This document shows positions 37,734-64,000 of a DNA stretch of 64,000 nt, in pieces. Both the position numbers and the translations under genes were made by a program. The notes under the pieces were generated by a model. It was given only the letters and a program-made list of their open reading frames with translations. It was not told the DNA's origin and ran no database searches. Source of the DNA: Faecalimonas sp. Lineage in GTDB: Bacteria; Bacillota; Clostridia; Lachnospirales; Lachnospiraceae. Where the stretch lies: the NCBI GenBank assembly GCA_045659705.1, contig JAZRCJ010000071.1, forward strand, positions 7,810-71,809, read 5' to 3'. Position 1 is the first letter of the stretch. Every line of letters starts with the position of its first letter.

Positions 37734-38780
37734 CTATTTGTTCAATTCTTCTTCTAAAATCTTCTGCAAATCAAATTCATCCGGGAAAGCATCATCAAAT
37801 GAAATACTTCCTGTTGTCTCTTTCACGGCTTCCGGCTTTAGCGAACGTGTTTCCTGACGTTCATTAATCTTTTTCACAGTCTTTTTCGGTGCAGCCACCG
37901 TAAGCTTCGGCACTGCTTTTACGTAATAGTAATATTCATCATCCTCAAACTGCAAGTATTCCGTACGGGAATAATCCACTGGGAATGCAAAAAACTCAAT
38001 CAAAAATGCCAACAACGCGGAAATCACTGTTCCTATAATCACCCATACCGGTGACAAATTTACATTTGCATCGATACTGATAAACAATAATACAATCATA
38101 TTCACAATGGAACCGGTAATAACTGCTATTTTCCATGCATTGTCACCGGACGTCTTACGAATGTTATATACAACCAACAAGCACACTGCAAAGGAAAGCA
38201 ACATAAACCACATCTCTTTATTGCCCAAAAGCTGCCCTGCATATGTAGTAAGCTGTCCCATGATTCCTAATTCTGTGGCATTTTCCAAAATCGCAGTGTA
38301 AGACTCTACATAGGATATGATGTAGTAAAATATCACTCCAAAACTCATAGCCAAAAGACAGGTCGGTGTATATAATAAACCGCAGGCAATCGGCACCAGC
38401 ATTGGTATTTTGAGCATAAACGCAATTGGCATCAAAAGAAGTAATATAGACTTCTTCGGGTCAAAACGAAAACAAAAAATAAACATAACCAAGAATACCA
38501 CTGCCACTACTGCGGCTATCCCTGGCGCTAAAACATACAATTGAACCAACGTATAAATGCACACCATAACAACTGTAATATTCATAGAAAGGAATGCACA
38601 AATCACCGATAGTGCAATTGCGACAAACGGATTTGCCGTCACTTTCAAAAACCCGATATTGGTATGGATAAACATAAAAACACAAAAAGCCACAACAAAG
38701 CGTACTGCTTTATCAATATAACTAGAATACTTTGTATAGAACCGCTGAATATTTTCTCTTTTTTCTACCAATCCATTCAT
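37734..38780 (-). CDS. Polytopic membrane protein of unknown function
   Basis: Many TM segments; C-terminal QFEDDEYYYYVKAVPK motif. Confidence 0.7.
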   Translation of the reverse strand: MNGLVEKRENIQRFYTKYSSYIDKAVRFVVAFCVFMFIHTNIGFLKVTANPFVAIALSVICAFLSMNITVVMVCIYTLVQLYVLAPGIAAVVAVVFLVMFIFCFRFDPKKSILLLLMPIAFMLKIPMLVPIACGLLYTPTCLLAMSFGVIFYYIISYVESYTAILENATELGIMGQLTTYAGQLLGNKEMWFMLLSFAVCLLVVYNIRKTSGDNAWKIAVITGSIVNMIVLLFISIDANVNLSPVWVIIGTVISALLAFLIEFFAFPVDYSRTEYLQFEDDEYYYYVKAVPKLTVAAPKKTVKKINERQETRSLKPEAVKETTGSISFDDAFPDEFDLQKILEEELNK

Positions 38781-49616: not shown

Positions 49617-49979
49617 TTATTCCCTTTTCAATGCATCATTCATAGATAGTAAATATACGCAGTATTGGTTCATGCTAACCCCTTCTGCTTTTGACTGTTC
49701 TGCCAATTGTCGGTGCAAAGTTTTTGGAAGGCGAAGTTTGAATTGTCCGGAATATTTTTTCAACTCCTCTGGTTCAGGTATGGCATTCCCCGACTGCAAC
49801 TCCGCTTCTATCCATGCGCGTTTTGCATCGATAATATTTTGAATGACTTCTTCCATTGTTTCCCCGATGGTAATACATCCCGGCAAATCCGGAAATATTG
49901 CAACAAATCCTCCCTCTTCATTATCTGGGATGATTTCCATCTTATAAGGCAAACTCATATAATATTCAACTGTCTTCAA
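49617..49979 (-). CDS. hicB: HicB antitoxin (RNase H-like plus RHH DNA-binding domain)
   Basis: FPDLPGCITIGET, IPEP, YSGQFKLRLPKTLH..A..EGVSMNQ; probable TTG start at 49979. Confidence 0.92.
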   Translation of the reverse strand: MKTVEYYMSLPYKMEIIPDNEEGGFVAIFPDLPGCITIGETMEEVIQNIIDAKRAWIEAELQSGNAIPEPEELKKYSGQFKLRLPKTLHRQLAEQSKAEGVSMNQYCVYLLSMNDALKRE

Positions 49980-50220
49980 CCTCTTTTTCCTCGCTTTCAA
50001 CAATATTTTTGACCATTTCTACATACACTTTCTTAATCGTATTATGTTTAGGAATCGTTATAGACCTACAACCTGGTTTTCTAAATGTACAATGGCTACT
50101 GCCACTTTTCGGTGAATTCATTATGTAGCCATATGACTCCAATACTTTTCTCAATTCATCAAAGCGTAAATCTGCAGACAATGTGCTAATTCGCCATAAT
50201 AATTTATCCCACTTGGACAT
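49966..50220 (-). CDS. hicA: HicA toxin (mRNA interferase)
   Basis: FDELRKVLESYGY, GSSH, ITIPKH, KKVYV; overlaps hicB. Confidence 0.9.
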   Translation of the reverse strand: MSKWDKLLWRISTLSADLRFDELRKVLESYGYIMNSPKSGSSHCTFRKPGCRSITIPKHNTIKKVYVEMVKNIVESEEKEVEDS

Positions 50221-50239
50221 TAATTATTCTCCTTTCATC

Positions 50240-50269
50240 ATTATATTACGGTGTCATATGTGGTGTCAA
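50240..50269 (-). promoter_or_regulatory. hicAB promoter with overlapping TGACACC direct repeats
   Basis: TTGACA-18bp-TATAAT; minus strand reads TTGACACCACATATGACACCGTAATATAAT. Confidence 0.75.
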
Positions 50270-50480: not shown

Positions 50481-50515
50481 AAAAAAACTACCAGAGACAA
50501 TGCTCTGGTAGCTTT
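50481..50515 (-). terminator. Terminator at the end of the glycan-utilization locus
   Basis: CTACCAGAG-N6-CTCTGGTAG with a T-run on the minus strand. Confidence 0.75.
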
Positions 50516-50522
50516 CATTGTT

Positions 50523-53500
50523 TTATTCTAAGTTAGTAATAATCGAATGGTTGACATCAAATTCATTTCCATTCAATGTTATGACTGTACCTCCAGTTTG
50601 TTTTGGGCTTTCATCATATCGCCCTGTCTTCAATCCATATGTAAAACGAATACCTTCCCATTCCACACTGATGGAATTTACATGTTGGTGTCCGAAGAAC
50701 GTACCGTCTGTTCCTGCTGCTTTTAAATATGGCAAAATAAATTCTGACATTGCAGACGAACCAACTGTTCTTGCTTGTTTAAACCCGAGATTGGTTTCAT
50801 AATTGTGACTGACACTTTCGGTATCTGCTTTCGCCTGATATCCAGCATTAACAAGCGCCGTCGTCACTTCTGCAAGTGGCACATGCACACATAAGAAGGA
50901 TGGCACTTCTGCACCCATATAGGCATTTACTTTTGCCGCTGTAGAGCGATACCAGTTAATCTGCTCATCATGGAAGATAAATTTTGTAGTAATTGCATCT
51001 TTATCTTCTTGATTTGCCACTCCGGAAATATTTGCACATCCATTCGTATCCATCATGAAAATGGTTCTCTGAATCTTGCCTTGCACCGCAATACCAATCG
51101 AATAATTACCATTACCGCCAATCTCATTTCTGCGATTAAAAACACAGTAATCGGATTCCATAAACTGCTGGCACTGCCAACTCACGCCCAATGCAGTTTC
51201 ATTGTCATGATTTCCGAAAATAGGAGCCCATAGAATCTTATATGAATCCATCTTCTCAACCAATTTCTGTAAAGCTGTTCCGTCATCATCAAATTCGCCG
51301 TATACATTATCTCCGGTCATTAAGATTAAGTCCGGCTTTTCCTTTGCAATCAATGCATCAAGCTCATTGTAAACCAGATTATTCATCTGATCAGTTGCAT
51401 ATTTGATAACCGAGCTTGCAGACAAACGATTCGCCGTCCTTTGTTGTGCACTGTCAATAATCTGTGTGTCCGTAATTTGCAACACTTTAATCTCTCTGTC
51501 CGTGTCAAAATCAAGTACAAAATCCAATCCACAACCACTGAGTGCTGCTGTATTTGTTGTATAAACTCTGCTCGCTTCATCTGCAATATCCGAGATGCTA
51601 ATTACAGAAGTTCCTTCTTCTGTGGTAGTTAAATCTGTAATGTGAGTCTCTGTTCCGTTTTGAGTTTGGCTACCTGTTTCTCCCAAAATATTGCGAGACA
51701 TGGCTTTGGCTTGAAGTGTATTAATATCTCCAAGTAATTGTGTGTGCATACTATCCAACACTGTTGCAGAATACCATTCGCTTCCTTCCACATAGCCAAC
51801 AGCTTTCTTACCTGCATTGGATGTATCGGCTCTTTCCCCTGCTGCCAGTTTCTTCAAAGCTACTAGATCAACCGTCTTAACAAATCCATCTGCAGTAACA
51901 TCATTTGTCTTGTATACAAGTACATTTTCCTTAAAGGTACTTGTTCCCATGGTTGTTTCATTCGTATAAACGACTTCATATTCACCTGGTTTTGTTGTAT
52001 TCCAAGATGATCCTTGCACCTTGCCATTAACCGTCACTGCCACTCCATCTGCAAAGTAAGCATAATCATCTGCACAATGTGTAATCTCTGTAGCCATTTG
52101 CTGTGTATAATTACCAAGTACAATATGACCATTTGACTTTTCTGAGTATACCGCGATGTTTGGGTTCAATTCACTTGTTACGCTATCTACATAGAAATAG
52201 GTGTTGTTATATAACACATCATTAAACCAAACACCAACTTCCAAGTCATCAAACAAATCATCACCGTCGCTATCCACATATTTTGTAGAAATGCTTAACT
52301 TATAGGTATTCTCAAATAATTTTACGCCTGCAACACCTGCATGAAGGGTTGCCAAAGTTTTGTCTGCATAACCCACGCTAAAAGTTTCTGCCGCATTTCC
52401 ATCAGAACCGATTCGTATACAGTGCCATCCCATCAACTTTTCTGACGGACAACCATAGAATAATTTCACGCCTTCTTTACTAAATCTTACATTTGTAGAA
52501 AATATTGCGCCATCTAAACTTCCCGTTTTCTCCGCTGTGGTCTTCGGATGCATAAGGGTTTCTTCCGGATTGCCACTGCCATATCCATAAACACCTGCTG
52601 CCGCGCCAGATGCATTGACATCAGAAAGGCCTAGTTGCTTAGCAAACTGACTTTTTTCTTCCTTTACATCCGTTATACTTACAGTATTTGCATACGCCTC
52701 TTCCGCTGTTAAGTAGGAAAATACAGACATTCCTGTTCCCACTTCATCAATTTTGTCTACATAATAATAATTGCGAAGTAACTTGCCATCGATCCATACG
52801 CCCAAACGAGCATCATCACTTTTACCGTCTCCGTGAAAATCCATCTTTTCGAGGCTAAGTCCTAATTTGAATGAATCGCCAAAGAATGTTGTTCTATCGA
52901 CTTCGGAGGCAGCAATTGTTCCTCCTATAATAGAATTATCTGTATTCGCCACTGTAATGGTGGCATTTAAAATATTAAATTTCGTTCCATACCAACCACC
53001 TTTATCCAGCGGTACCGCATAATGAATCTGTGAACCTGCTGTAGACTCCTCCACACTAAGATTCACTTCCATCAAAGTATTAAGGAGTGTGGTTGGTCCT
53101 ACAGAATTATGTACCTGTTTAATGCACTCACCATTTGCAAGTCCAAAGTCCTCCAGCTCCACTTTACGCAACCGACTGACATCCTGTACTTCAGATTCAA
53201 TTGCAATTGCCGTAGTACCTGTGGTGAAGTTTCCAGCTGCAAGCATCGAGAATCGATTCACCAGCGAAACGGATTCGGAGCACATATCTTTGATAATCAC
53301 ATAATGATTCTGCAAAAGTTTATCATTAATACGAATTTCAATCTTTCCATCGGTTGCGGCTCCATCACCATCCCAATCCCAAGGAATGGTATTAAAACTG
53401 ATGTCGAATTCTTTTCCTATCGGCATACCACTCGCATAAGATTGACTATTATCCCCTGAGGCGTCTGGTTCGTTCAGATAACTACCTCCCAACCTGGTTC

Positions 53501-54515
53501 CCGGTATAAACCAAAATTGTCCAGAAGATTTGATTTGAATGCGCAATCCACTAATATACCATTCTCTATCTCCCTCTTTCACAGTAGCGGTACTACCATA
53601 ATTAAGCATATATGTTCCGCTACCGCTTAGCATCATTCGTCCTTTCAATTGAGTAGATATCATGGACCCCACAAAGGTACCCGTTCTATAAGTGGCTTGC
53701 GTTGAAAAAGTTTGATCCGACAAACCATAATCCGCAAACGTAGCTGTATTATTATACGGTAATTCGCAGGATTCAACGGTGACTGAATCACAAATCCCAT
53801 CTGTTGAACCAAAATTACGTCCACTCACTTCACCAGCAAACCATTTTTCTGCCGTGTTCAAAATATAACAATTCCCATTGGCACCATATTTTGCCGGATC
53901 TCCAATCCCTTTCGTACTACTGTCAACACACAGAACATCATTTATGTATAGTTTAATTAGTACATCATTATTAAGTTCTCCACTTGTAGTATCTGCCACA
54001 CTATCCAAATTTGTCATTTCCACAGAAAAAGTGAGTTTAAATTTATTATTAAAAAAGGAAGCTAATCCAGCTGGCTTTGCAAACACAAATTTATTCACAT
54101 TATTACAAATTGCATCTGTATGCAAATACATATTATTGGCATCAAATGACAATTTAATACCTGCCCAAGTACGCGTAGCGTGAGATGGATCTCCTCCAAA
54201 TACCAAAAACGGATTGTTTGCTGCCGCAATAGTATCCCCCTCATTGTTTAGCGTAATATAACCACTAAATTGACTCTCAATTAATGAAGTCCCAGATCCA
54301 GCCGCACTAGAAATATAGCTCTTCGGAGTCAATCTCTCAGCTATCGTACTGTCAGCTAGCCCAAAATCTGCGAATGTAATTGGTCGTAATGTAGTTGTCT
54401 TGGTTGTTGCTGTTTGTGTCGTGTCATCTGCCTGCACTTCTTGGGTACCGACATTACTAAACGCAATGCCGGCAACCATACATAGCACCAACAAATATGA
54501 TAATATTTTTTTCAT
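50523..54515 (-). CDS. Secreted multidomain protein: four unassigned beta-rich modules, a dockerin-like segment and a C-terminal calcineurin-like metallophosphoesterase
   Basis: Signal peptide; repeated TFADFGL...DxDGDG..D...xxxND modules; VLQITDTQ, MTGDNV, FGNHD, HVP, GHQH. Confidence 0.75.
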   Translation of the reverse strand: MKKILSYLLVLCMVAGIAFSNVGTQEVQADDTTQTATTKTTTLRPITFADFGLADSTIAERLTPKSYISSAAGSGTSLIESQFSGYITLNNEGDTIAAANNPFLVFGGDPSHATRTWAGIKLSFDANNMYLHTDAICNNVNKFVFAKPAGLASFFNNKFKLTFSVEMTNLDSVADTTSGELNNDVLIKLYINDVLCVDSSTKGIGDPAKYGANGNCYILNTAEKWFAGEVSGRNFGSTDGICDSVTVESCELPYNNTATFADYGLSDQTFSTQATYRTGTFVGSMISTQLKGRMMLSGSGTYMLNYGSTATVKEGDREWYISGLRIQIKSSGQFWFIPGTRLGGSYLNEPDASGDNSQSYASGMPIGKEFDISFNTIPWDWDGDGAATDGKIEIRINDKLLQNHYVIIKDMCSESVSLVNRFSMLAAGNFTTGTTAIAIESEVQDVSRLRKVELEDFGLANGECIKQVHNSVGPTTLLNTLMEVNLSVEESTAGSQIHYAVPLDKGGWYGTKFNILNATITVANTDNSIIGGTIAASEVDRTTFFGDSFKLGLSLEKMDFHGDGKSDDARLGVWIDGKLLRNYYYVDKIDEVGTGMSVFSYLTAEEAYANTVSITDVKEEKSQFAKQLGLSDVNASGAAAGVYGYGSGNPEETLMHPKTTAEKTGSLDGAIFSTNVRFSKEGVKLFYGCPSEKLMGWHCIRIGSDGNAAETFSVGYADKTLATLHAGVAGVKLFENTYKLSISTKYVDSDGDDLFDDLEVGVWFNDVLYNNTYFYVDSVTSELNPNIAVYSEKSNGHIVLGNYTQQMATEITHCADDYAYFADGVAVTVNGKVQGSSWNTTKPGEYEVVYTNETTMGTSTFKENVLVYKTNDVTADGFVKTVDLVALKKLAAGERADTSNAGKKAVGYVEGSEWYSATVLDSMHTQLLGDINTLQAKAMSRNILGETGSQTQNGTETHITDLTTTEEGTSVISISDIADEASRVYTTNTAALSGCGLDFVLDFDTDREIKVLQITDTQIIDSAQQRTANRLSASSVIKYATDQMNNLVYNELDALIAKEKPDLILMTGDNVYGEFDDDGTALQKLVEKMDSYKILWAPIFGNHDNETALGVSWQCQQFMESDYCVFNRRNEIGGNGNYSIGIAVQGKIQRTIFMMDTNGCANISGVANQEDKDAITTKFIFHDEQINWYRSTAAKVNAYMGAEVPSFLCVHVPLAEVTTALVNAGYQAKADTESVSHNYETNLGFKQARTVGSSAMSEFILPYLKAAGTDGTFFGHQHVNSISVEWEGIRFTYGLKTGRYDESPKQTGGTVITLNGNEFDVNHSIITNLE

Positions 54516-54535: not shown

Positions 54536-57500
54536 TTATTTTCTAAGGCCCAATTCATATGCCCATCTTCTTGTAAATCCCCAGATTGTATACTCAATTG
54601 GCTTATGATAGGTGTAAATCTTTAAACTTGCATCCTTATTTGCACAATAAATACCAAGATGTCCTCCTAGCACATCTGCAATGTCCTGCAGATAGAACCA
54701 GCGATCCCCGTATGCTTTTCCATTAAACCATACGCCTAGTTTTACATCATCCTTTTTGCCATCCCCATCAGCATCCACATATTCGAAGCTCAGTTGCAAT
54801 TTTACATCTTCTCCAACCAGTGCAGTTCCTGCTGTTGCTGGATCAAAGTAGATATTTGCCATCTTTCCTTCCGCTTCGTTTAAGACCAACTTACCATCTT
54901 CTGTATTGGAAAGAATCAATCCATGCCATGCACTTGGCTTTCCGCCGATACGGAGCTGTGCTCCTGCATCCTTCGAAAACTGTACTGTATCGGAAAATAC
55001 AACTTTATTTAAACTTTCCAAACCACAATGTCCGCTGGCAGCCAATCCTAATTTATCAAAACTATAGGTGTCGCTTTTGATACCATAAGAATCAAATGTT
55101 AACTGTTTGAAGTTTTTATCCACTATAGGCGTCGGTTCCGGAATTCCGATTTTGATACTTCCTTTTTTGTTTTCCACATAGAAACCTACATAGTTTCCAA
55201 AAGCATCCGCTGCATTACTCAAATGGAAATAAGAACCGTCGTATAGTTCTCCATTAATATAAAACCCTAATTTTGCATGCTTGCCGTTCTTGAACAACTC
55301 AATCTTTAGGTCTATTTCTTCACCAACTAAGGCTGTGCCTGCAACTTCCGGCATCAGATAATAAACTTCTGGGAATTCTCCCGCACTTGCCTGTATCTGA
55401 ATGGCTCCATTGTCCTGCGTGGTAAAGTTTACACCATGCCATGCACTTGGTTTTCCACCATAACGGATACTATTTCCCTTATGTTTACTGAATGTAATCT
55501 TCGTGGAAAATGTGGAATTCATAAATCCACTTTTGTATGTTCCCGACACAACCAAATCATTGTTGTTATATTTGTAAAGTGCCTCGGTAATTCCCAATTG
55601 TCCTAGTGTCACTTTATGAAGCGCTGGTTTTTCAATCACTTCTTTCCCTTTGCCGTCCAGCGACTCTAGTATGACGTCCGAACACAAGCCTTCTACACCA
55701 ATATTTTGTATTGTGAAATACCCTTGCAAATTGTCAGTCTTCGCATTGAGAATATAGTAGGAACCATTTTCTCCATAAAGTTCTGCATTTCCTGTGTCAT
55801 TTGCAATCCAAAGAGTATCATTAATATACATTTTTACAAGTACATCGTCTTTTTCCGCACCACCATCTAAATTGGCCGATTCAAAAGCGACTGTCAGTCT
55901 AAACTTCTCACCCGCAAATGTTGTCAAGCCTTCATTGTTATCCGCACTGAAGGTATATGGATACGGATTGGTATCTGTTACAGAACCCTGATTTAACACT
56001 ACCGTTTTTCCATCTGGTTTAAACTGAAGTTGTACGCCATCCCAACCGGAGCTTTCTACCCCATTCGTTCCGCCAAGTACCACATAAGTTTCTGCACTTG
56101 CACTTGTCAAATCTTCATTTAATGTGAGATAACCGCTCACTTCTGTTCCTACAAGAGATGCCCCCTCGTTATAGGTTCCTCTCACACTTGTATATCTATT
56201 ATCTGCAAGTTCAAAATCGATAAATGTAAGTCCTGTCAATTCTACAGGTTCTTCCGGTTCTGGCTCTGGTTCCGGCTCTGGCTCTGGTTCCGGCTCCGGA
56301 TCAGGTTCTGGATCAGGTACAACACTGACATCTCCAAAAGTAATGTCTGAACAAAGTCCTGCAACACCCATCTGTTGCACGGCCAAATACCCTAACATAT
56401 TCTCTGTCTTTGCATTTAGAATGTAGTAAGAACCATCCGCTCCATAAAGCGCTGCATTTCCTGTATCATTTGCCACCCACAAATTATCGTTGATATACAA
56501 TTTTACAAGAATATCATTCTTTTCTGTTCCACCATCTAAATTAGCCGGTTCAAAAGATACAGTAAGTTTAAACTTTTCACCTGCAAATGTGGTTAGTCCT
56601 TCGTTGCTGTCTGCGCTAAATGTATATCCATACGGATTGGTTCCTGTCACAGAACCTTGATTTAATTTAACTGTTTTTCCATCTGGCTCAAACTGAATTT
56701 GAACACCATCCCATCCGGAACTTGCTAATCCTGTAGTTCCGCCAAGCACTAACCATGTTCCGGCACTTGCATTTGTCAAATCCTCATTTAATGTGATATA
56801 ACCACTGAGTTTTGTTCCTATCAAAGAAGCGCCTTCGTTGTATGTTCCTCTTACAAAGGTGTAAGTTCCGTCTGCAAGACCAAAACTTGTAAAATCAAGA
56901 TCCGTCAACACTACCGGTTCTTCCGGTTCTGGCTCAGGCTCAGGCTCTGGTTCTGGCTCCTGGGTTTCGATGCTGATAGATTCTAATGTAACATCTGAGC
57001 AAAGACCTGCCGCGCCAATCTGTTGCGCTGCAAAATAGCCCAAGAAATTCTCCGTTTTAGCATTTAAGATATAATAAGAACCATCTTTACCATAAGTTGC
57101 TGCATCGCTGACATTGTGTGCCACCCAAAGGTTGTCATTAATATAGAGTTTGAACAGAATATCATTTGCTTCTGCTCCACCGTCTAGATTTGCAGTCTCT
57201 AAACTAATAGAAAGTTTGAATTTCTCACCTGCAAATGTGGTTAAGCCAAGATTGTTATCTACACTGAAAGCAAATGGATATCCATTGGTGCCTACAGAGC
57301 CTTGATTTACCGTTACACTCTTTCCGCTTGGATCAAACTGTATCTGAATCCCATCCCATCCGGAACTTGCTAATCCCGTAGTTCCGCCAAGCACTAGCCA
57401 TGCTCCGGCACTTGCATTTTTCAAATCCTCGTTTAAAGTCACATAACCACTCAGTTTTGTTCCCACTAAAGACGCACCTTCTTTGTAAGTCCCTCTTACA

Positions 57501-58258
57501 AAGTTGTATGTGTTATTCTCAAGGCCAAAATCCGTAAAACTAATTGGAGTCAATTCTTCCGTATAAGACTCCAATGCTATATCCGAACAAAGACCTGCTG
57601 CACCTATCTGCTGTGCTGCAAGATAGCCTAACAGATTCTCTGTCTTTGCATTTAAGATATAGTAAGAACCGTCTTTGCCATAAGTCGCCGCGTCGCTGAC
57701 ATTATTTGCTACCCAAAGATGGTCATTAATATACAACTTAAACAGAACATCATTAGCTTCTGCACCACCATCCAAGTTTGCACTTTCCAAACTGATTGCC
57801 AGTTTAAATTTCTCACCCGCAAATGTTGTCAATCCTCTATTACTATCCACACTATAGGTAAATGGATACCCATTGCTTCCTACAGAACCTTGATTTACTG
57901 TTACGCTTTTTCCGCTTGGGTCAAACTGAATTTGAATACCGTCCCAACCGGAACTTGGAAGTCCTGTTGTTCCACCAAGAACCAGCCATGCTCCTGCGCT
58001 TGCACTTGTTAAATCCTCGTTTAAAGTGATGTAGCCACTTAATTTCGTTCCTATCAAGGACGCACCTTCATTATATGTTCCTCTTACAAAGGTGTATGTT
58101 TGATTTGCAAGACCGAAATTGGAAAATGTCAGTTCTGTCAACGAATCCGTTGATGTGTTTGTTCCGGCAAAAGACTGGATTCCAATAGCATTTAACACCA
58201 ATACCATCGCACAAACAACGGCCATTATTCTTTTCCTATATAATCGTTTTTCTTTCAT
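54536..58258 (-). CDS. Secreted protein built from six copies of an unassigned ~170-196 aa module with Pro-Glu linkers
   Basis: Signal peptide; four highly similar and two divergent modules; (PE)n linkers; probable ATG at 58258. Confidence 0.8.
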   Translation of the reverse strand: MKEKRLYRKRIMAVVCAMVLVLNAIGIQSFAGTNTSTDSLTELTFSNFGLANQTYTFVRGTYNEGASLIGTKLSGYITLNEDLTSASAGAWLVLGGTTGLPSSGWDGIQIQFDPSGKSVTVNQGSVGSNGYPFTYSVDSNRGLTTFAGEKFKLAISLESANLDGGAEANDVLFKLYINDHLWVANNVSDAATYGKDGSYYILNAKTENLLGYLAAQQIGAAGLCSDIALESYTEELTPISFTDFGLENNTYNFVRGTYKEGASLVGTKLSGYVTLNEDLKNASAGAWLVLGGTTGLASSGWDGIQIQFDPSGKSVTVNQGSVGTNGYPFAFSVDNNLGLTTFAGEKFKLSISLETANLDGGAEANDILFKLYINDNLWVAHNVSDAATYGKDGSYYILNAKTENFLGYFAAQQIGAAGLCSDVTLESISIETQEPEPEPEPEPEPEEPVVLTDLDFTSFGLADGTYTFVRGTYNEGASLIGTKLSGYITLNEDLTNASAGTWLVLGGTTGLASSGWDGVQIQFEPDGKTVKLNQGSVTGTNPYGYTFSADSNEGLTTFAGEKFKLTVSFEPANLDGGTEKNDILVKLYINDNLWVANDTGNAALYGADGSYYILNAKTENMLGYLAVQQMGVAGLCSDITFGDVSVVPDPEPDPEPEPEPEPEPEPEPEEPVELTGLTFIDFELADNRYTSVRGTYNEGASLVGTEVSGYLTLNEDLTSASAETYVVLGGTNGVESSGWDGVQLQFKPDGKTVVLNQGSVTDTNPYPYTFSADNNEGLTTFAGEKFRLTVAFESANLDGGAEKDDVLVKMYINDTLWIANDTGNAELYGENGSYYILNAKTDNLQGYFTIQNIGVEGLCSDVILESLDGKGKEVIEKPALHKVTLGQLGITEALYKYNNNDLVVSGTYKSGFMNSTFSTKITFSKHKGNSIRYGGKPSAWHGVNFTTQDNGAIQIQASAGEFPEVYYLMPEVAGTALVGEEIDLKIELFKNGKHAKLGFYINGELYDGSYFHLSNAADAFGNYVGFYVENKKGSIKIGIPEPTPIVDKNFKQLTFDSYGIKSDTYSFDKLGLAASGHCGLESLNKVVFSDTVQFSKDAGAQLRIGGKPSAWHGLILSNTEDGKLVLNEAEGKMANIYFDPATAGTALVGEDVKLQLSFEYVDADGDGKKDDVKLGVWFNGKAYGDRWFYLQDIADVLGGHLGIYCANKDASLKIYTYHKPIEYTIWGFTRRWAYELGLRK
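55640..58141 (-). repeat. Four intragenic tandem repeats of ~590 bp
   Basis: Units start at about 58141, 57553, 56908 and 56239 (minus strand); first period 588 nt; PE-coding hexamer repeats at ~56250-56320 and ~56915-56960. Confidence 0.9.
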
Positions 58259-58271
58259 TTTGTTTCCACCT

Positions 58272-59681
58272 TTATTCAAATACTACCAACACACCTTCTC
58301 CTGCTTTCAAGTCCAGTGTCATTTTATTGGTATCTACATAAGAAACTTTTGCCTGCTGCGTTACAGTTGCTTTATAAGAATCTTTTAAATCAAGTGTAAC
58401 TTTTTGCGCCTTTTCTGCCTCATAATTCACGACATAAAGTGCACTTTTCCCTTTAAAATTAAAGCAACCAATTAGTGCATTACCCTGCACACCTTCTACT
58501 TCTCGCCATGAAGTGCCTTCCAAAAGGTAATTCATACCCTTCATATCTTGCATTGCTTCCTCTCCGGATGCAATCACGCCTTTGTTTACCGCGTTCATCA
58601 AAACACTGTCCACTGCTGCAATCTGCTCATTAATGCTTTTTGCATAATGCCACCACTGTGTTTTATTACCTGCGGCACCGATAATTCCATTTCTTTGGAA
58701 ATCCCATGGGGTAGATTCTGCCAATGCAAAATAAGTCGGCTGAATCAGTGGGAAATACTGAATCCCCTTGGCGCCATAAGCAAGTGCTGTATTGACATTC
58801 CATCGAAATTGGCCTTCTGTCGGATAATATCCATTTGTATCGAATTTTTCTGCTGCATCATTCCATTGACTTCCTGCCTGCACATATACCCAGAACGGAA
58901 TCTCCTGTTCCTCTGCATACTTACGTATCACGTCTACGTTATAAAAATATCCTGCCTTTGTTCTTCCTTCGTCCCACACATAGTAGTCAAAAGACAGATA
59001 ACTAGGATTGCAGGTCGTACAATACTCTTCGATCATCTGATTATACTTTTCGTAATCCGCTTCTTCCCATACCGGGAATAAATTTCCGCCACCAACCATA
59101 TTCAGTGATGCCAAGTCCGTAAATAACGGTGCAAATGCTGAAATATCATGGGCTTGATCTTTTGACGGATAATAATACGGTGTTCCCGGTTCATCTACTA
59201 CATACACACCACAAAATGCAGGATAATCACTATATTCTGTAATGCGTTCGCTGACCTTTAACAGATTGGTTCCATCCCCTGTGGCTAATGTCTGTAACAT
59301 AGTATCCTGGACAAAAAGGCCCAATCCATATTTCTCTCCGAGTTCCAGTAACTTCCTTGTATCTTCCGGCGAAGTCTTATAGTCTGTACGCGTGTAGTGC
59401 GTCATATTCACGCCACATTCTGTAATACTCTCGAAAATCTCATCGGTGATGTAATTCGGAAAAGACTCACCATCCACGCTAGAATCTACCATGTATGGTC
59501 CATAGTATCCGGAAATTGGCATTACATCTGAGCCACCAATAAAATCAAAACTTACCGCCTGTACCTCTTCTATTTCCATAGGTTCCAGACTTGCTTTCTG
59601 CGTGCCACAGGCTGTCAATGATGCTAACATACCTGCCAAAAGCAATGCGCTGATGCCTCGCTTTAAAATTTTATGCTTCAT
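58272..59681 (-). CDS. Lipoprotein, putative glycoside hydrolase (TIM-barrel-like)
   Basis: Lipobox LTAC; GVYVVDEP, YLSFDYY, PFWVYVQ, ALAYGAKGIQYF. Confidence 0.6.
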   Translation of the reverse strand: MKHKILKRGISALLLAGMLASLTACGTQKASLEPMEIEEVQAVSFDFIGGSDVMPISGYYGPYMVDSSVDGESFPNYITDEIFESITECGVNMTHYTRTDYKTSPEDTRKLLELGEKYGLGLFVQDTMLQTLATGDGTNLLKVSERITEYSDYPAFCGVYVVDEPGTPYYYPSKDQAHDISAFAPLFTDLASLNMVGGGNLFPVWEEADYEKYNQMIEEYCTTCNPSYLSFDYYVWDEGRTKAGYFYNVDVIRKYAEEQEIPFWVYVQAGSQWNDAAEKFDTNGYYPTEGQFRWNVNTALAYGAKGIQYFPLIQPTYFALAESTPWDFQRNGIIGAAGNKTQWWHYAKSINEQIAAVDSVLMNAVNKGVIASGEEAMQDMKGMNYLLEGTSWREVEGVQGNALIGCFNFKGKSALYVVNYEAEKAQKVTLDLKDSYKATVTQQAKVSYVDTNKMTLDLKAGEGVLVVFE

Positions 59682-61242
59682 CTGCTTTTACCTCCTTTTT
59701 CTTCGGAGTTTTCTTGCCTTTTGCAACAAGCAGACAAGTACCGAATACGATTACGCCTGCGATTGCCGCATATGCCATTAACATACCCCAGTTAAAGCCG
59801 GACTCCTCATCCGATTCCAGATAGACATCTTCTGCCGGTTCATACGCATAATCTTCTGTTCCTGTCATTTTTCCTGACGCGTAATCTACATCAATGGTAT
59901 TTCCTTTTTGATCTTTGTTTACAATTTTAAAATTATCAATTGCAAAATTTGCCTGTCCCTTAGACCAGATATGTACATACCCTGTCGGTGTTGCATTTCC
60001 AATCTTATAAGAATAAATTTTCTGATACTTGGTATCTTTTAGTGCTTTCATCTCAATTGTCACAATCGTATCAATCACGGAAAGTTTTACCGAATAACCT
60101 TCATTTTTTTCTTTGTCTGAAAAATGTTTATCTGCAAAACTCACCGGCACCTGTGTACCTTTTAAGTTATAGAGACTATCTGCCCCAAACACGATTGCAT
60201 CTGCCGCCGTTGTATATCCGGCTTCCTTATAATCCGACGATTCATCTGCTATTGCAACTACCAATCCCGTACTTGCAGGCTTCTGAATAGTCCCTTCTTC
60301 TCTTAACTCATTCTTGTAGAGAATATATGGCACATCAAAGGTAACCTCAAAATTCGAATACTGATATACCGTTCCAAAATACCCAGCACCTGCATTGCTA
60401 AACATCAGCACTTGACTTCCGTTATATTTTTCCACCTGGATGGCTGCCGGATAAAATCCACAGGAATTAAGCATTTGTGATGTCAAAGTATTCACATTGA
60501 TGGTTCCTTGCTCAAAATCTTCAGAAACATTTACATTCTCCGGTGCTTCATAAGAATGTGACACAATCTGTACAGCACTGATTTCTGCCGCACAATTTCC
60601 AGTCTGCAAAAATCCCACACGGCCTTCCAAATTCATTGGTGCTTTTTTATCATAAATTCTCTTGTTGTTCACCTGGATATTTACCTTCATATCTGCTGTA
60701 ACAGATGCTTGAATGGTAATGTTTTGTCCGAGAGAAGCTCCCACACTCTGAGCGGCTACCAGTTTCTTTTCAGCTCCGTCTTCATCATAAGCAATGAGCC
60801 CAACCTTTAAACCACCATTATTTTCAAATACCAATTCCAGATTTCCTGCTTCTCCGTAATAGGATTCCAATGTGGTAAGCCCAAATGCCACTATGAATTT
60901 TTCGCCCTTTGGCAAGGTTTTTAGTTTCATGCTGTACTCTGCTTTTAAAAATTCTTCATGGTATTCACTGACTTTAATCGGATTTGCTGTAATCAGTCTT
61001 GTTTCTCCGGTGCTATCTTCCGGAAATAAGATTTTTCCATCTTTTACTGTCAGTTCTGCACTTGGATTATTCCATATGGTTGCATCCAGTTCTTCTGCAA
61101 AGGAAGTGCTATCAATAATAATATCACTGCTACCTGCAAACACGTGCATTGTATAAACACCACTGCCTGCGATAGCTATTGCCATCGCAAGCCCTAGTGC
61201 ACTGACTTTTTTCAATATATTTTGTATATTTCTTTTTTTCAT
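59671..61242 (-). CDS. Surface protein with beta-sandwich-like domains and C-terminal membrane anchor
   Basis: Signal peptide, two beta-rich segments (GRVGFLQ..; GYVHIW..FAIDNFKI), C-terminal TM plus Lys-rich tail. Confidence 0.6.
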   Translation of the reverse strand: MKKRNIQNILKKVSALGLAMAIAIAGSGVYTMHVFAGSSDIIIDSTSFAEELDATIWNNPSAELTVKDGKILFPEDSTGETRLITANPIKVSEYHEEFLKAEYSMKLKTLPKGEKFIVAFGLTTLESYYGEAGNLELVFENNGGLKVGLIAYDEDGAEKKLVAAQSVGASLGQNITIQASVTADMKVNIQVNNKRIYDKKAPMNLEGRVGFLQTGNCAAEISAVQIVSHSYEAPENVNVSEDFEQGTINVNTLTSQMLNSCGFYPAAIQVEKYNGSQVLMFSNAGAGYFGTVYQYSNFEVTFDVPYILYKNELREEGTIQKPASTGLVVAIADESSDYKEAGYTTAADAIVFGADSLYNLKGTQVPVSFADKHFSDKEKNEGYSVKLSVIDTIVTIEMKALKDTKYQKIYSYKIGNATPTGYVHIWSKGQANFAIDNFKIVNKDQKGNTIDVDYASGKMTGTEDYAYEPAEDVYLESDEESGFNWGMLMAYAAIAGVIVFGTCLLVAKGKKTPKKKEVKADEA

Positions 61243-61253
61243 ATACCCGTCAC

Positions 61254-62768
61254 CTACTTAATATTCAATAACCAGTTCTTGTCATAGTTATCATTAATCA
61301 GTGCCACAATACTATCCCATGCTTCTGTCGCGCTAATACGATCTGCTTCACTGTGTGAACAGAACAAGTTTACAAATTCCTTATTTGCAAATGCATGACC
61401 CCCACCATCAGTAAAGAGTCTGTGTTTGCTGATAATGTTGTTGTTAATGCCAGACTCTGTTTTTGCAAACAATTCTGCCTGGTTTAATTCAAATTGATTC
61501 CATCCGGTTGTATCAATATCTCCGGTGCTCAAATTCATTGGCATCTTTACATGCAAAGTATCCAAATACATCTGATATCCTTCATCTGAATACATAAATT
61601 TAAGGAACTCTTTCGCACCTTCCTGTGCGTTACTGTATGTCGGAATATATGCCGTTTCACCAGCATAGTTTGTCGGCATCATATTACGAGCTGTTTTTAC
61701 AGTATCCCAATCCGCTGCTGAAATTTTTTTCCCTTCCACAACATAATTATCACCTTTTTTATAGGTGTCGATATTTTCCACACCATCTGTTACATTATCA
61801 ATTGCCGCAATCACTTTACGAAGTTCCGGTTCTGTCTTAACCGTTTTCAAATGGTCAATAATGGATGAGATAACCGGTGTTTTCATCATGACAAAATTAT
61901 CAACCTTATCGCTGTTACTCATTTCACTTGCAAGCCATGAACCGGTGAACATCATTCCACATTCCCCTTCTAAGAACTTTGTCTGCATAGTCACATGGTC
62001 GTCTGAATTGGAACCTTGCAATACATATTCCGGTTTGATAATCTTTTCCATTGCCTGTACTGCTTTATATCTGCCATCTTCTGTTGTCATCTTTTCCTTA
62101 GAAGGATCTGTGTAGAAATCATAGTAATATTCCGTGCCATTATACTGTGCGAACCAAGCATCACAGAGATACCAATAATACTGGCTGCCTTTAAAATGAC
62201 AAAGCGGTGTAATGGCATTATCGGAAAGTGTAGCACACACAACTGCTAATTCATCGGTTGTTCTTGGAAGCTGTGTGATTCCCGCTTTTTCAAACAACGA
62301 TTTGCTGTATACAAATCCCATAATTCCACCGCCATATGTAAGATTGTAATAGTTGCCGTCTAATGCTTCTTGTTCCAAATAACTTGCGTCAAATTTTTCT
62401 TTGATGCTTACGGATTCTCCTTCCACTGTGGTATCCAACACATCATTCAGTGGTTCTAAGTATGTAGTATCGTATTCCTTTGCTGCCAAATACAAATCGA
62501 CCGTATCCACATCTTCTAATCCAAATGCAGCATTAGCCGCTTCAAAGTCTGCTGTCCCTTTAAAATACACCTTGTATTCTGATTGTTTTTCATTAAATGC
62601 CTTCACCAGCACATTTAACCACTCATCACCAAGACCGGCGTGCCAATAACTGATTTCCACGTCTTTAGCACTATTGCCACCTTTACTGCCGCCCTTCTTT
62701 CCACAGCCTGCCATAAGGCCAAGTGCAAGTACCCCTACAAGTACCATTGCCAATAATCTCTTTTTCAT
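61254..62768 (-). CDS. Carbohydrate ABC transporter solute-binding lipoprotein
   Basis: Lipobox MAGC; YSKSLFEKAGI..PRTTDEL, FLEGECGM..TGSW, AKEFLKFM; next to permeases. Confidence 0.88.
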   Translation of the reverse strand: MKKRLLAMVLVGVLALGLMAGCGKKGGSKGGNSAKDVEISYWHAGLGDEWLNVLVKAFNEKQSEYKVYFKGTADFEAANAAFGLEDVDTVDLYLAAKEYDTTYLEPLNDVLDTTVEGESVSIKEKFDASYLEQEALDGNYYNLTYGGGIMGFVYSKSLFEKAGITQLPRTTDELAVVCATLSDNAITPLCHFKGSQYYWYLCDAWFAQYNGTEYYYDFYTDPSKEKMTTEDGRYKAVQAMEKIIKPEYVLQGSNSDDHVTMQTKFLEGECGMMFTGSWLASEMSNSDKVDNFVMMKTPVISSIIDHLKTVKTEPELRKVIAAIDNVTDGVENIDTYKKGDNYVVEGKKISAADWDTVKTARNMMPTNYAGETAYIPTYSNAQEGAKEFLKFMYSDEGYQMYLDTLHVKMPMNLSTGDIDTTGWNQFELNQAELFAKTESGINNNIISKHRLFTDGGGHAFANKEFVNLFCSHSEADRISATEAWDSIVALINDNYDKNWLLNIK

Positions 62769-62787
62769 AACTACCATTTCCTCCTTT

Positions 62788-63654
62788 TTATCCTTTAATT
62801 CCACCAACAGAAACATTTGTTGTAATCATTTTGTTAAATACAATAAACAGAACAATCGCCGGAATGGATATAATCACACAAGCGGCGAATAAGATATCCA
62901 ATCGCGCCCGGTAAATCATCTCTGTATTAAACTGGTAAATACCTACCGGAAGTGTCGGCAACTGTGGTAAATAAATCAGTGCACTTTCATAAGTATTCCA
63001 GTTCATAATCCAGTTTGTTAAAAACAAAGCTCCGAAAATCGGTTTTGTCTGCGGAAACATCACCTTAAAATAAATCTGGAAATCGTCCGCTCCGTCTATC
63101 ATTGCGGCCTCCGCATAGGTCCACGACAGATTTTTAAAGTATGCCGTAAAATATAAAAACATCATATTAAAACCGCTTGCCGATGCAATAACCTGTGCGT
63201 AATTATCAATCAATCCTAAAGAATGATAGAGCTTATATACCGCCCCACCGTTTCCGTAAATCGGAAGCGTAATCATAATCAGAACAATCACATATGGCCA
63301 CGAGGAACCGCGAAACTTATATTTGCTGCATGTATAAGCAAATGTGACTGTTGTAAACACCTGAATGAATACCCCGACAACAGAAAACCAAACACTGTTA
63401 AACAACATATTGAAAAATGTATTATCATTTACTTCCAGTAATCGGAACACATCCAAATAGTTTTCCCAGTGCCATGTAGTCGGCAATCCAAACGGATTCA
63501 TAACAATCTCCGTATTGGTTCGAAGCCCTGCCAATATGGCCCACACTAAAATGTAGAGATAACTAAGCGCCACCACCATAAAAATGACAGATACAACAAT
63601 ATGTAATACTACTTCGGCTGGTGATTTTCGTTTAAAATTTTTAAATAATCTCAT
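62788..63654 (-). CDS. Carbohydrate ABC transporter permease (MalG-like)
   Basis: WENY, EAAMIDGA, WNTY, TLPVG. Confidence 0.92.
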   Translation of the reverse strand: MRLFKNFKRKSPAEVVLHIVVSVIFMVVALSYLYILVWAILAGLRTNTEIVMNPFGLPTTWHWENYLDVFRLLEVNDNTFFNMLFNSVWFSVVGVFIQVFTTVTFAYTCSKYKFRGSSWPYVIVLIMITLPIYGNGGAVYKLYHSLGLIDNYAQVIASASGFNMMFLYFTAYFKNLSWTYAEAAMIDGADDFQIYFKVMFPQTKPIFGALFLTNWIMNWNTYESALIYLPQLPTLPVGIYQFNTEMIYRARLDILFAACVIISIPAIVLFIVFNKMITTNVSVGGIKG

Positions 63655-63666
63655 CTCTCACCCTCC

Positions 63667-64000
63667 TTAGTACTCTACTTCGTCAAACAATTTATCCGTA
63701 AGTTTTCTGATAGAGAGTGAAATGATAATCGCCACTATCGTAATCAGCAAACCAACTGCAGACATAAAGTTATATACATTCGATGTGTACACAGAGCCTG
63801 CATTGTTATACAAGGTCGTGTACATCCATGCGCTGAGCGTCATGGTTTCGTATTGTCCTCCTGTCAGAAGGAAAACATTACCGGTTGCACCGAAGATACC
63901 GCAGAAAAGCAATACCATTTGAAGCGCCACTGTCGGCCATACCATTGGCACAACAATCTTGGTAAATTCTGTCCACCATGTCACACCGTCTATCTTGCCA
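63667..64000 (-). CDS. Carbohydrate ABC transporter permease (MalF-like), partial; 5' end beyond the window
   Basis: Frame open to the window edge: ..KIDGVTWWTEFTKIVVP (EAA loop), LLTGG, C-terminal TM. Confidence 0.88.
   Translation of the reverse strand, partial: GKIDGVTWWTEFTKIVVPMVWPTVALQMVLLFCGIFGATGNVFLLTGGQYETMTLSAWMYTTLYNNAGSVYTSNVYNFMSAVGLLITIVAIIISLSIRKLTDKLFDEVEY

What the first reader, a model, noticed from the sequence alone, without database searches (positions are those of the whole stretch)
54536..58258. Unrecognised ~170-200 aa module present about ten times across two neighbouring secreted proteins
Seen in sequence: a shared pattern LTx(L/I)TFxxFGL...SL...S(G/T)xxx(L/F)...GG...WxG(I/V)...GExFKLxxSxExxx(L/A)DG...D(V/I)xxxxxxN...Y(I/L)xN...G. 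It occurs six times in the 1247-aa ORF (four near-identical copies, two divergent) and about four times in the 1330-aa protein. Several copies carry a DxDGDG..DD loop typical of Ca2+ binding, and the WxG tryptophan is conserved. The larger repeat protein has no recognisable catalytic domain and uses rigid (PE)n spacers. Inference: a new lectin/CBM-like beta-sandwich family providing multivalent glycan binding.
Basis: partly seen in the sequence, partly recalled or inferred. Interest (0 to 1): 0.75.

Follow-up and report, generated by a model that had tools for sequence, protein, structure and literature searches.

The report
Docked lectin-like arrays of gut bacteria
Two neighbouring secreted proteins of an uncultured gut bacterium are built from ten copies of an unnamed domain predicted to fold like a galectin, which likely grabs sugars beside a sugar importer, and the larger protein is predicted to clip onto a membrane-anchored neighbour through a short conserved tail.

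Summary
The repeat is real: six copies in the 1247-aa ORF and four in the 1330-aa ORF. Each scores 29-91 bits on a leave-out profile; shuffles reach at most 9.

It is no local oddity. This 63%-complete genome has 55 copies in 13 ORFs, and 562 of 1.84 billion representative proteins match. No Pfam family matches above cut-off, and no solved structure matches by sequence.

A confident model (pLDDT 96.7) folds as a ConA-like/galectin beta-sandwich (Z 11.3, rmsd 2.8, 131 aligned). Galectin and GH16 motifs are absent. The inferred concave face keeps one Trp, is hypervariable and rich in aromatics and Arg, and has no conserved acid: a likely diversified, non-catalytic sugar-binding face.

The genes end a repeated ABC-importer/glycosidase cassette.

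New here: module-only proteins end in a conserved 20-residue tail (64 of 89, against 0 of 53 enzyme-type proteins). A complex model docks it on a membrane-anchored cassette protein (0.70; controls 0.00) that co-occurs with the module in 13 of 47 genus genomes (32 have neither). One control that kept both partners also scored zero, so docking is tentative. Neither sugar nor calcium binding is shown.

The parts
54536..58279 (-). Module-only secreted protein P0001 (1247 aa from TTG; likely start ATG 58258): signal peptide, 6 modules, two (PE)n linkers, C-terminal tail, no transmembrane or sortase anchor seen
57560..58144 (-). Module A1 (aa 46-240)
56966..57556 (-). Module A2 (aa 242-438), 84% identical to A1
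56912..56959 (-). (PE)n linker 1
56324..56911 (-). Module A3 (aa 457-652)
56243..56317 (-). (PD/PE)n linker 2
55655..56242 (-). Module A4 (aa 680-875)
55136..55621 (-). Module A5 (aa 887-1048), no acidic loop
54602..55114 (-). Module A6 (aa 1056-1226), conserved 'base' subtype with a DxDxDG loop; modelled, ConA/galectin-like fold
54539..54601 (-). C-terminal tail (aa 1227-1247), family pattern (V/I)-D-(F/Y)-x-x-(F/Y/W)-G-(F/Y/L)-x3-W-x3-L; predicted docking peptide
50523..54515 (-). Enzyme-type secreted protein P0002 (1330 aa): 4 modules, Ig-like stub, degenerate dockerin-like segment, metallophosphoesterase; no tail
53760..54392 (-). Module B1 (aa 42-252), same subtype as A1-A4
53184..53759 (-). 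Module B2 (aa 253-444)
52659..53171 (-). Module B3 (aa 449-619)
52098..52652 (-). Module B4 (aa 622-806)
51711..52088 (-). Ig-like stub plus dockerin-like segment (recognised by motif and by a self-built HMM seeded partly on it; no Pfam hit at E 0.001)
50526..51488 (-). Calcineurin-like metallophosphoesterase domain (PF00149)
58272..59681 (-). 469-aa lipoprotein, GH-type (beta/alpha)8 barrel predicted at low confidence; invariant D163-E164, Y234, near-invariant W273; overlaps the TTG of P0001
59671..61242 (-). 523-aa cassette protein with a C-terminal hydrophobic segment ('T520'), no Pfam hit
61254..62816 (-). Carbohydrate ABC solute-binding lipoprotein (SBP_bac_1)
62788..63654 (-). ABC permease (BPD_transp_1, just under cut-off)
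63667..64000 (-). 3' end of the second ABC permease. Beyond the window edge on the same contig (L007:12375-14132) lies the 585-aa membrane-anchored protein 'T580', the predicted partner of the tail, then a GH78 rhamnosidase
50488..50511 (.). 9-bp hairpin just after the P0002 stop, possible operon terminator (consensus match only, called on the + strand)

Best explanation
The repeat is an unnamed family of domains predicted to fold as ConA/galectin-like beta-sandwiches that likely act as non-catalytic sugar-binding modules, and the 1247-aa protein is likely a multivalent surface capture protein of an ABC sugar-uptake cassette, predicted to be tethered to the cell by its 20-residue tail docking on a membrane-anchored cassette protein (T580). 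Shown in sequence or by search: the modules, the repeated cassette, two architectures (module array plus tail; module array plus dockerin-like segment plus GH-like or phosphoesterase domain), a conserved last module with shuffled distal modules, and co-occurrence with T580. Predicted: the fold and the tail-T580 interface. Inferred: each module binds glycan in its concave face through a fixed Trp and variable Tyr/Arg/His, so shuffled arrays give different specificities; bound polymer is cut by the neighbouring secreted GH-like and phosphoesterase domains and imported by the ABC system. The substrate is least certain: rhamnose/HexNAc/phosphodiester-containing glycans such as other bacteria's wall or capsule polymers are suggested by the neighbouring enzymes.
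For: Fold: pLDDT 96.7; best matches galectin-8N (Z 11.3, rmsd 2.8, 131 aligned) and CBM66 (Z 10.5, rmsd 3.2, 137 aligned). Faces (699 modules at <60% identity): nine inferred concave-face positions have mean entropy 3.78 bits, 36% W/Y/F/H/R and no acid above 5%; nine convex-face positions have 2.93 bits and 10%; Trp in 421 of 699 and Gly in 642 of 699. Context: SBP, permeases and GH78/GH20 in the window's cassette; the cassette occurs 4-5 times in this genome; 12 of 32 unassigned neighbours in module-bearing loci are glycoside hydrolases; 48 of 150 top homologues carry the GH-like domain. Gradient: last modules 32% mean identity with Trp in 93%, first modules 21% and 56% (84 tailed proteins); orthologues keep A5-A6 and swap distal modules. 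Tail: 64 of 89 module-only proteins against 0 of 53 with GH-like, phosphoesterase or dockerin-like domains. Docking: score 0.70, best of 3 controls 0.00; this mark was reached by 116 of 157 solved complexes and 2 of 215 mismatched pairs (counts hold only roughly for this 3-chain job with my alignments); runs agree in at least 59% of contacts, partner pLDDT at least 87; the interface is tail against T580 domain 1. Pocket residues 67 and 123 are both hydrophobic in 21 of 21 anchored domain-1 copies and 0 of 14 free copies of the same domain. T580 and module co-occur in 13 of 47 genus genomes, one alone in 2, neither in 32; full T580 lies in 16 of 76 loci, all module-bearing.
Against: No binding was measured, and a shared fold shows no function: the same fold list includes LamG, GH16, PL7 and pilin domains at Z 9-10. 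The face assignment rests on DSSP strand order, hydrophobic alternation and galectin topology, not on coordinates. The Trp is absent from about 40% of modules. The complex control that kept both the tail and T580 and replaced only the lipoprotein also scored 0.00 (partner pLDDT fell to 75), which a pure two-body docking does not predict. T580 domain 2 also has hydrophobic 67/123 (19 of 21). By a crude regex 21 of 64 tailed proteins also carry a sortase-like anchor, so the tail is not simply an anchor substitute. The tail HMM was seeded on 42 of the same hits. Co-occurring genomes are kin and the genes are co-inherited in one cassette. How the tail-less enzyme-type protein P0002 is retained is unexplained.
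Confidence: 0.52

Rival explanations
1. The modules bind glycan as proposed, but the tail does not dock on T580; it caps the last module, lies on the membrane as an amphipathic helix, or binds another cassette protein such as the lipoprotein or T520.
For: The control that kept tail and T580 but replaced the lipoprotein scored 0.00. The tail starts like a module's own N-terminal T-F-x-D-F-G motif. The tail coexists with sortase-like anchors in 21 of 64. T520 was not in the complex job.
Against: All three runs scored 0.70-0.72, and every confident contact of the best run is tail to T580 domain 1. The pocket residues are specific to anchored copies, and T580 and module distributions match in 45 of 47 genomes.
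Confidence: 0.18
2. The modules are adhesin domains that bind host or microbial proteins or cell surfaces, LamG-like, rather than capturing a food polysaccharide.
For: The fold also matches LamG domains of CELSR1, SHBG and Gas6 and the pilin PilC (Z 8.8-10.1). There is a weak profile match to Laminin_G_3-type domains (probability 19%, E 0.0012, 89 columns). Conserved base plus variable distal modules is a typical adhesin layout (own knowledge).
Against: Tight association with ABC sugar importers and glycosidases, and fusion of the modules to GH-like and phosphoesterase domains.
Confidence: 0.11
3. Most copies are inert stalk units that only project the tip or a catalytic domain away from the wall; few or none bind anything.
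For: Recent tandem duplications (18% of 377 adjacent pairs >60% identical) and variable copy number. The Trp is lost in 44% of first modules.
Against: P0001 has nothing to project except modules. The concave face is enriched in aromatics and Arg against the convex face (36% versus 10%), which a pure spacer does not need.
Confidence: 0.1
4. The module arrays are scaffoldins: the modules act as cohesin analogues that capture the dockerin-like domains of the enzyme-type proteins.
For: Scaffoldin-like layout (signal peptide, tandem modules, Pro-rich linkers, sometimes a sortase motif). Dockerin-like segments occur in 31 of 61 mixed proteins and 1 of 89 module-only ones.
Against: The enzyme-type proteins carry the same modules themselves. 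The modules do not hit Pfam Cohesin, whereas three other ORFs of the genome do. The predicted fold matches galectin/ConA.
Confidence: 0.06
5. The modules are catalytic jelly-roll enzymes related to GH16, PL7 or 3-keto-disaccharide hydrolases.
For: GH16 and PL7 structures match at Z 9-10.3.
Against: E-x-D-x-(x)-E is found in 0 of 971 modules; no acid exceeds 5% at any of nine concave-face positions; no profile match to 6 GH16 domains (probability 0.6%). 4-11 tandem divergent copies are atypical of enzymes (own knowledge).
Confidence: 0.03

Closest known systems
Galectin carbohydrate-recognition domain (e.g. galectin-8N, PDB 9fxz/3vkn)
   Same: Predicted beta-sandwich of the same size and strand order (Z 11.3-11.4, rmsd 2.8-2.9, 131 aligned); tandem repeats; site inferred on the concave sheet
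   Different: 14% identity; the His-x-Asn-x-Arg motif is absent (0 of 971 in register); the conserved Trp sits before the S4-equivalent strand; extra N-terminal T-F-x-D-F-G-x4-Y motif and optional acidic loop
CBM66 of Bacillus subtilis (PDB 4b1m)
   Same: ConA-like non-catalytic module of a Firmicute secreted protein (Z 10.5, rmsd 3.2, 137 aligned)
   Different: 9% identity, no sequence-profile match; occurs in arrays of up to 11; no GH32 among the 45 neighbours scanned
Laminin_G_3 / ConA-like lectin-glucanase superfamily (PF13385)
   Same: Same superfold; weak in-register profile alignment over 89 columns (E 0.0012)
   Different: None of the module copies is hit by the Pfam model; lacks the W-x-H motif seen in that alignment
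Bacteroides SusE/SusF-type surface glycan-binding proteins and Gram-positive PULs (gpPULs)
   Same: Non-catalytic, likely multivalent binder encoded with importer and glycosidases
   Different: Gram-positive, ABC-based, with a fixed cassette of unannotated surface proteins; not a lipoprotein; predicted peptide-in-pocket tether
Cellulosome/amylosome cohesin-dockerin assembly
   Same: Predicted non-covalent display of secreted multimodular proteins on a cell-anchored partner; dockerin-like segments in the enzyme-type proteins
   Different: The predicted tether is a ~20-residue tail on a non-cohesin beta-sandwich; the modules are not cohesins by Pfam

Membership tests
ConA-like lectin/glucanase superfold | Two-sheet antiparallel jelly-roll beta-sandwich | tested here: met
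   Model pLDDT 96.7, pTM 0.91; Z 11.3, rmsd 2.8, 131 aligned; 74 Foldseek matches at E<=0.001. Met on a predicted model of one copy (A6).
Galectin | Conserved His-x-Asn-x-Arg, Asn, Trp, Glu site (His63, Asn65, Arg67, Asn77, Trp84, Glu87 in galectin-4N; PMC4734333, passages read) | tested here: not met
   H-x-N-x-R in 0 of 971 modules in register and 2 of 971 anywhere
Galectin | Beta-galactoside binding | not testable with these tools
   needs a binding assay
CBM66 | Sequence similarity to the family | tested here: not met
   The profile of 53 modules finds no CBM among PDB sequences up to E 10 (8 hits, best E 0.47, nanobodies/TCR); no CBM Pfam family among 53 members at E 0.1
CBM (general) | Non-catalytic module appended to carbohydrate-active enzymes | tested here: inconclusive
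   48 of 150 top homologues carry a GH-like barrel domain, but that domain is itself uncharacterised
CBM (general) | Demonstrated carbohydrate binding | not testable with these tools
   needs glycan array or ITC
GH16 | Catalytic E-x-D-x-(x)-E motif | tested here: not met
   0 of 971; hhalign against 6 GH16 domains gives probability 0.6%
Laminin_G_3 (PF13385) | Score above the Pfam gathering cut-off | tested here: not met
   Its 2 matches in this genome are both on contig C73, none in the module ORFs; 0 of 53 members; distant profile similarity only
Cohesin/scaffoldin | Pfam Cohesin (PF00963) match | tested here: not met
   3 matches in the genome, none in module ORFs
Cohesin/scaffoldin | Dockerin binding | not tested
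DxDxDG Ca2+-binding loop | D-x-[DN]-x-D-G motif | tested here: inconclusive
   Strict in 2 of the window's 10 copies and 207 of 787 overall; Ca2+ binding itself not testable
gpPUL (PMC13543919, passage read) | Glycoside-degrading enzyme plus transport system in one locus | tested here: met
   SBP_bac_1, two permeases, GH78 upstream and GH20 downstream
gpPUL (PMC13543919, passage read) | Transcriptional regulator in the locus | tested here: inconclusive
   The contig ends within the upstream GH78; an AraC regulator is in related locus L083

The most novel reading that the evidence does not exclude
Uncultured gut Clostridia run a previously undescribed Gram-positive surface 'utilisome'. Shuffled arrays of a new lectin-like module, with a hypervariable binding face, are clipped by a short C-terminal peptide onto a dedicated membrane anchor (a cohesin-dockerin-independent docking pair), next to an ABC importer and a new substrate-assisted hexosaminidase-like family, to harvest the wall and capsule polysaccharides of other bacteria.
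Probability: 0.25. Interest if true: 0.85.

Novelty: new variant of a known kind. Interest (0 to 1): 0.64.

Why it matters
How Gram-positive gut bacteria capture complex glycans at their surface is far less understood than the Bacteroides Sus system. This gives a defined, repeated cassette with three directly testable unknowns: a large new family of likely glycan-binding modules (about 1000 sequence variants in hand, a possible source of probes for unusual glycans), a predicted 20-residue peptide/anchor docking pair that could serve as an orthogonal display tag, and an unannotated GH-like lipoprotein family. The 13 ORFs take 4.1% of this assembly, so they likely define the organism's niche, and standard Pfam-based annotation misses them.

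Tried and rejected
Pfam, NCBIfam and PDB sequence searches of P0001 gave only low-complexity (PE)n hits or scores under cut-off; the module profile against PDB gave a best E of 0.47. A GH16 register for the conserved Trp (recalled lichenase W-x-E-x-D-x-E) was not supported by hhalign against six laminarinase-type domains and is dropped. No profile similarity was found between the module and the T580-type domain (probability 1.6%). Cohesin is not among the top 50 fold matches, which is inconclusive. The lipoprotein model used only 4 sequences and is poor (pLDDT 49.7), so its fold matches (Z 7.4-9.7) are only suggestive. The ESM Atlas gave no result. No RNA holder was listed. The module profile was too divergent to seed a contig scan, so loci were collected through the lipoprotein (best 80 of 95 matches, 76 loci), which biases them toward cassette-bearing loci. 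My first anchored/free classification of T580-type domains mislabelled five true T580 proteins and was redone by full-length score. Promoter scan: 47 sites against 42.8 expected by chance, uninformative. Earlier scan findings: three look-ups returned nothing. Literature: nine full-text searches showed no description of this module, tail or cassette in their listings; subscription papers and supplements were not covered.
Full report
OBSERVATION. Two minus-strand ORFs, 54536-58279 (P0001, 1247 aa; likelier start ATG 58258) and 50523-54515 (P0002, 1330 aa), lie 20 bases apart. I delimited six modules in P0001 (A1-A6) and four in P0002 (B1-B4). Each scores 29-91 bits on an HMM built without it, against at most 9.0 bits for shuffles. 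A1-A4 are 65-84% identical, B1 is 35-39% identical to them, and the rest are 16-35% identical. The Trp is in all ten, strict W-x-G in eight, and a strict DxD/NxDG loop in two. A homologue at 85% identity has the same six-module layout.

EXTENT OF THE FAMILY. Iterating the HMM over all 6819 stop-to-stop frames of the genome (1.36 Mb, 63% complete) gave 55 copies in 13 ORFs; the reversed-sequence control had a best E of 0.51. These frames cover 4.1% of the assembly. Against 1.84 billion representative proteins the 53-sequence profile found 562 at E<=0.001 and 480 at 1e-10, a compact family. It was found in 13 of 46 other genomes of the genus, 0 of 16 genomes of other families in the order, and 0 of 398 scored genomes drawn across the class (2 more unscored). 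The best cassette relatives are gut MAGs whose record titles say Faecalimonas sp., with some titled Faecousia, Ruminococcaceae, Oscillospiraceae or Tyzzerella. I infer an uncultured gut Lachnospiraceae-type organism. No Pfam family passes its cut-off on any of 53 modules, and the profile finds nothing in PDB sequences below E 0.47.

FOLD. AlphaFold2 on A6 with 53 sequences gave pLDDT 96.7 and an almost all-beta structure. Foldseek ranks fungal and human galectins first (E 5e-5 upward), with CBM66 at E 4.6e-4. The wide structural search gives galectin-8N Z 11.3 (rmsd 2.8, 131 aligned), CBM66 Z 10.5 (3.2, 137), and GH16, LamG and PL7 at Z 9-10.3. The superfold is therefore clear; the nearest family is not. 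A weak in-register profile match to Laminin_G_3-type domains (E 0.0012) agrees. In galectins the concave S1-S6 sheet holds the sugar site, built from His, Asn, Arg, Asn, Trp and Glu (PMC4734333, passages read). I mapped the module's DSSP strands onto that strand order using hydrophobic alternation. No coordinates were available, so this step is an inference. In 699 modules under 60% identity, nine outward positions of the concave sheet average 3.78 bits of entropy with 36% W/Y/F/H/R, and no Asp or Glu exceeds 5%; nine outward positions of the convex sheet average 2.93 bits with 10%. The Trp (421 of 699) and the Gly two residues on (642 of 699) sit at the start of the S4-equivalent strand. The galectin and GH16 motifs occur in 0 of 971 modules in register. 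This is what a non-catalytic, diversified binding face would look like; it does not prove binding.

CONTEXT. The genes close a minus-strand run: GH78, a 585-aa membrane-anchored protein (T580, just outside the window), two ABC permeases, a carbohydrate SBP, a 523-aa protein (T520), a 469-aa lipoprotein, P0001 and P0002; then come hicB and a GH20. The same order recurs on contigs C20, C43 and C38, and T580 also on C63. Among 76 loci collected through the lipoprotein, 68 have the SBP, 69 T520 and 21 the module. Of 32 unassigned neighbours in module-bearing loci, 12 are glycoside hydrolases (GH2, 3, 13, 20, 35, 36, 38, 106, 123); eight hand-picked ORFs of this genome add GH78 (3), GH106, GH3, a PIG-L deacetylase and a GDSL esterase. 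Five more hand-picked neighbours gave two glycerophosphodiesterases, GH106, GH78 and GH20. Rhamnosidases, hexosaminidases, deacetylases and phosphodiesterases together suggest decorated bacterial wall or capsule polymers (inference from own knowledge); plant rhamnogalacturonans or host glycans are not excluded. The locus meets the enzyme and transporter parts of the gpPUL definition (PMC13543919, passages read).

TWO ARCHITECTURES AND A TAIL. Of the 150 best homologues, 89 are module-only (at least 75% covered) and 61 mixed; 53 of the mixed carry a GH-like barrel, a metallophosphoesterase or a dockerin-like segment, as P0002 does. A C-terminal motif, (V/I)-D-(F/Y)-x-x-(F/Y/W)-G-(F/Y/L)-x3-W-x3-L, is found in 64 of the 89 and 0 of the 53; the HMM was seeded on 42 of these hits, and several of the 25 misses show variants by eye. 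In this genome a regex version hits 4 of 6819 frames, all module-only proteins. In 84 tailed proteins the last module is the most conserved (32% mean identity, Trp 93%, acidic loop 77%) and the first the least (21%, 56%, 13%). Orthologues keep A5/A6-like ends and exchange the distal modules. The acidic loop is thus mainly a feature of the base module.

PREDICTED DOCKING. P0001 has no hydrophobic segment after its signal peptide. Full-length T580 occurs in 16 of the 76 loci, all module-bearing; four of the five module loci without it are cut short upstream. Across 47 genus genomes both occur in 13, T580 alone in 1, module alone in 1, and neither in 32; these are kin and the genes are co-inherited, so this is not independent evidence. 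One three-chain prediction (lipoprotein, T580 residues 33-388, A6 plus tail as partner) scored 0.70 with a best control of 0.00. That mark was reached by 116 of 157 solved complexes and 2 of 215 mismatched pairs, counts that hold only roughly here. The runs agree in at least 59% of contacts, and partner pLDDT is at least 87. Confident contacts join tail residues (I1228, Y1230, I1232, W1233, F1235, W1239, L1243) to T580 domain 1 (Y67, T121, F123, K125, S140, Y149), with none to the lipoprotein. No solved structure resembles either partner by sequence. Against this, the control that kept T580 and the tail and replaced only the lipoprotein also scored 0.00, so the prediction depends on context. 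As an independent check, the T580-type domain also occurs free in secreted arrays, sometimes interleaved with this module. Pocket positions 67 and 123 are both hydrophobic in 21 of 21 anchored domain-1 copies and 0 of 14 free copies, but also in 19 of 21 anchored domain-2 copies, which instead carry Glu69 (20 of 21) and never a small residue at 138. By a crude regex 21 of 64 tailed proteins also have a sortase-like end, so the tail may position the protein at the importer rather than merely anchor it.

THE LIPOPROTEIN. Its model is poor (pLDDT 49.7) but matches GH (beta/alpha)8 barrels; 16 of 86 members weakly hit GH42. D163-E164 and Y234 are invariant in 86 of 86 and W273 is present in 84 of 86. 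The segment where I expect the GH-A nucleophile (recalled GH42 register) has Gln in 83 of 86. GH123-type enzymes use a DE motif with a Tyr and a Trp (D327, E328, Y392, W431) for substrate-assisted catalysis (PMC11087588, passages read); the Tyr-Trp spacing is 39 in both. It may work like such a hexosaminidase; membership is not shown.

MECHANISM AND VERDICT. Most likely, P0001 is exported, clips by its tail onto T580, and presents six binding modules of three subtypes. P0002 and the lipoprotein cut the captured polymer, and the ABC system imports the products. The modules, cassette, architectures and distributions are shown; the fold and docking are predicted; glycan binding, Ca2+ binding and substrate are inferred. 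I put glycan binding at about 0.7, docking on T580 at about 0.6-0.65, and the joint reading near 0.5. The module is a new family within a known superfold. The cassette with a predicted peptide tether is a new variant of surface glycan-capture systems. Nine literature searches (listings and abstract starts only, apart from the three papers above) showed no description of it. CAZy/dbCAN and InterPro could not be searched, and supplements were not read.

Noticed in passing
window 58272-59681 (-): Unannotated lipoprotein family with an invariant D-E pair, Tyr and near-invariant Trp spaced as in GH123 and no Glu where a GH-A nucleophile is expected; found in 76 loci of gut Clostridia/Bacilli MAGs; candidate new substrate-assisted hexosaminidase family.
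   Followed up: partly
L007:12375-14132 (-), just beyond the window's right edge: T580: two beta-rich repeats of a second unannotated type, an InlB B-repeat and a C-terminal TM helix. The same domain occurs free in secreted arrays (P0182 has five copies followed by modules and the tail; L126, L128), so it is a second shuffled module family.
   Followed up: partly
window 59671-61242 (-): T520: conserved in 69 of 76 cassette loci, no Pfam hit; 4 of 61 members weakly hit 3-keto-disaccharide hydrolase (ConA-like). Fold and role not examined.
   Followed up: partly
window 51711-52088 (-): Ig-like stub and degenerate dockerin-like segment between the modules and the phosphoesterase of P0002; its partner is unknown. 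Three weak cohesin matches exist elsewhere in the genome.
   Followed up: partly
window 24872-26356 (-): 494-aa ORF with a weak N-terminal Cohesin match (23.2 bits against cut-off 24.1), next to two LytR-CpsA-Psr genes, a GH25/SH3 protein and a sugar transferase.
   Followed up: no
L004:9006-16163, L005:2636-9343, L004:1758-8714 (contig C69): Three 2200-2400-aa secreted proteins combine modules, dockerin-like segments and the GH-like barrel; two also have a Pfam metallophosphoesterase.
   Followed up: no
L003:1383-7007 (-): 1875-aa protein with an FG-GAP repeat region followed by four modules, directly after a cassette lipoprotein.
   Followed up: no
window 49617-50269 (-): HicB-type antitoxin gene with a perfect sigma-70 consensus promoter at 50269-50240, sitting between the cassette and the GH20 gene; a small hicA ORF was not looked for.
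   Followed up: no
window 17884-20055 (-) and 37734-38780 (-): 723-aa and 348-aa ORFs with no Pfam hit; the first lies downstream of an M24 peptidase and a creatininase-like gene.
   Followed up: no
L039, L041, L046, L053-L056, L061, L066: Module-free versions of the cassette carry a different ~480-530-aa InlB-repeat protein in T580's place and an unassigned ~610-aa ORF after the lipoprotein, possibly an analogous anchor/cargo pair.
   Followed up: no
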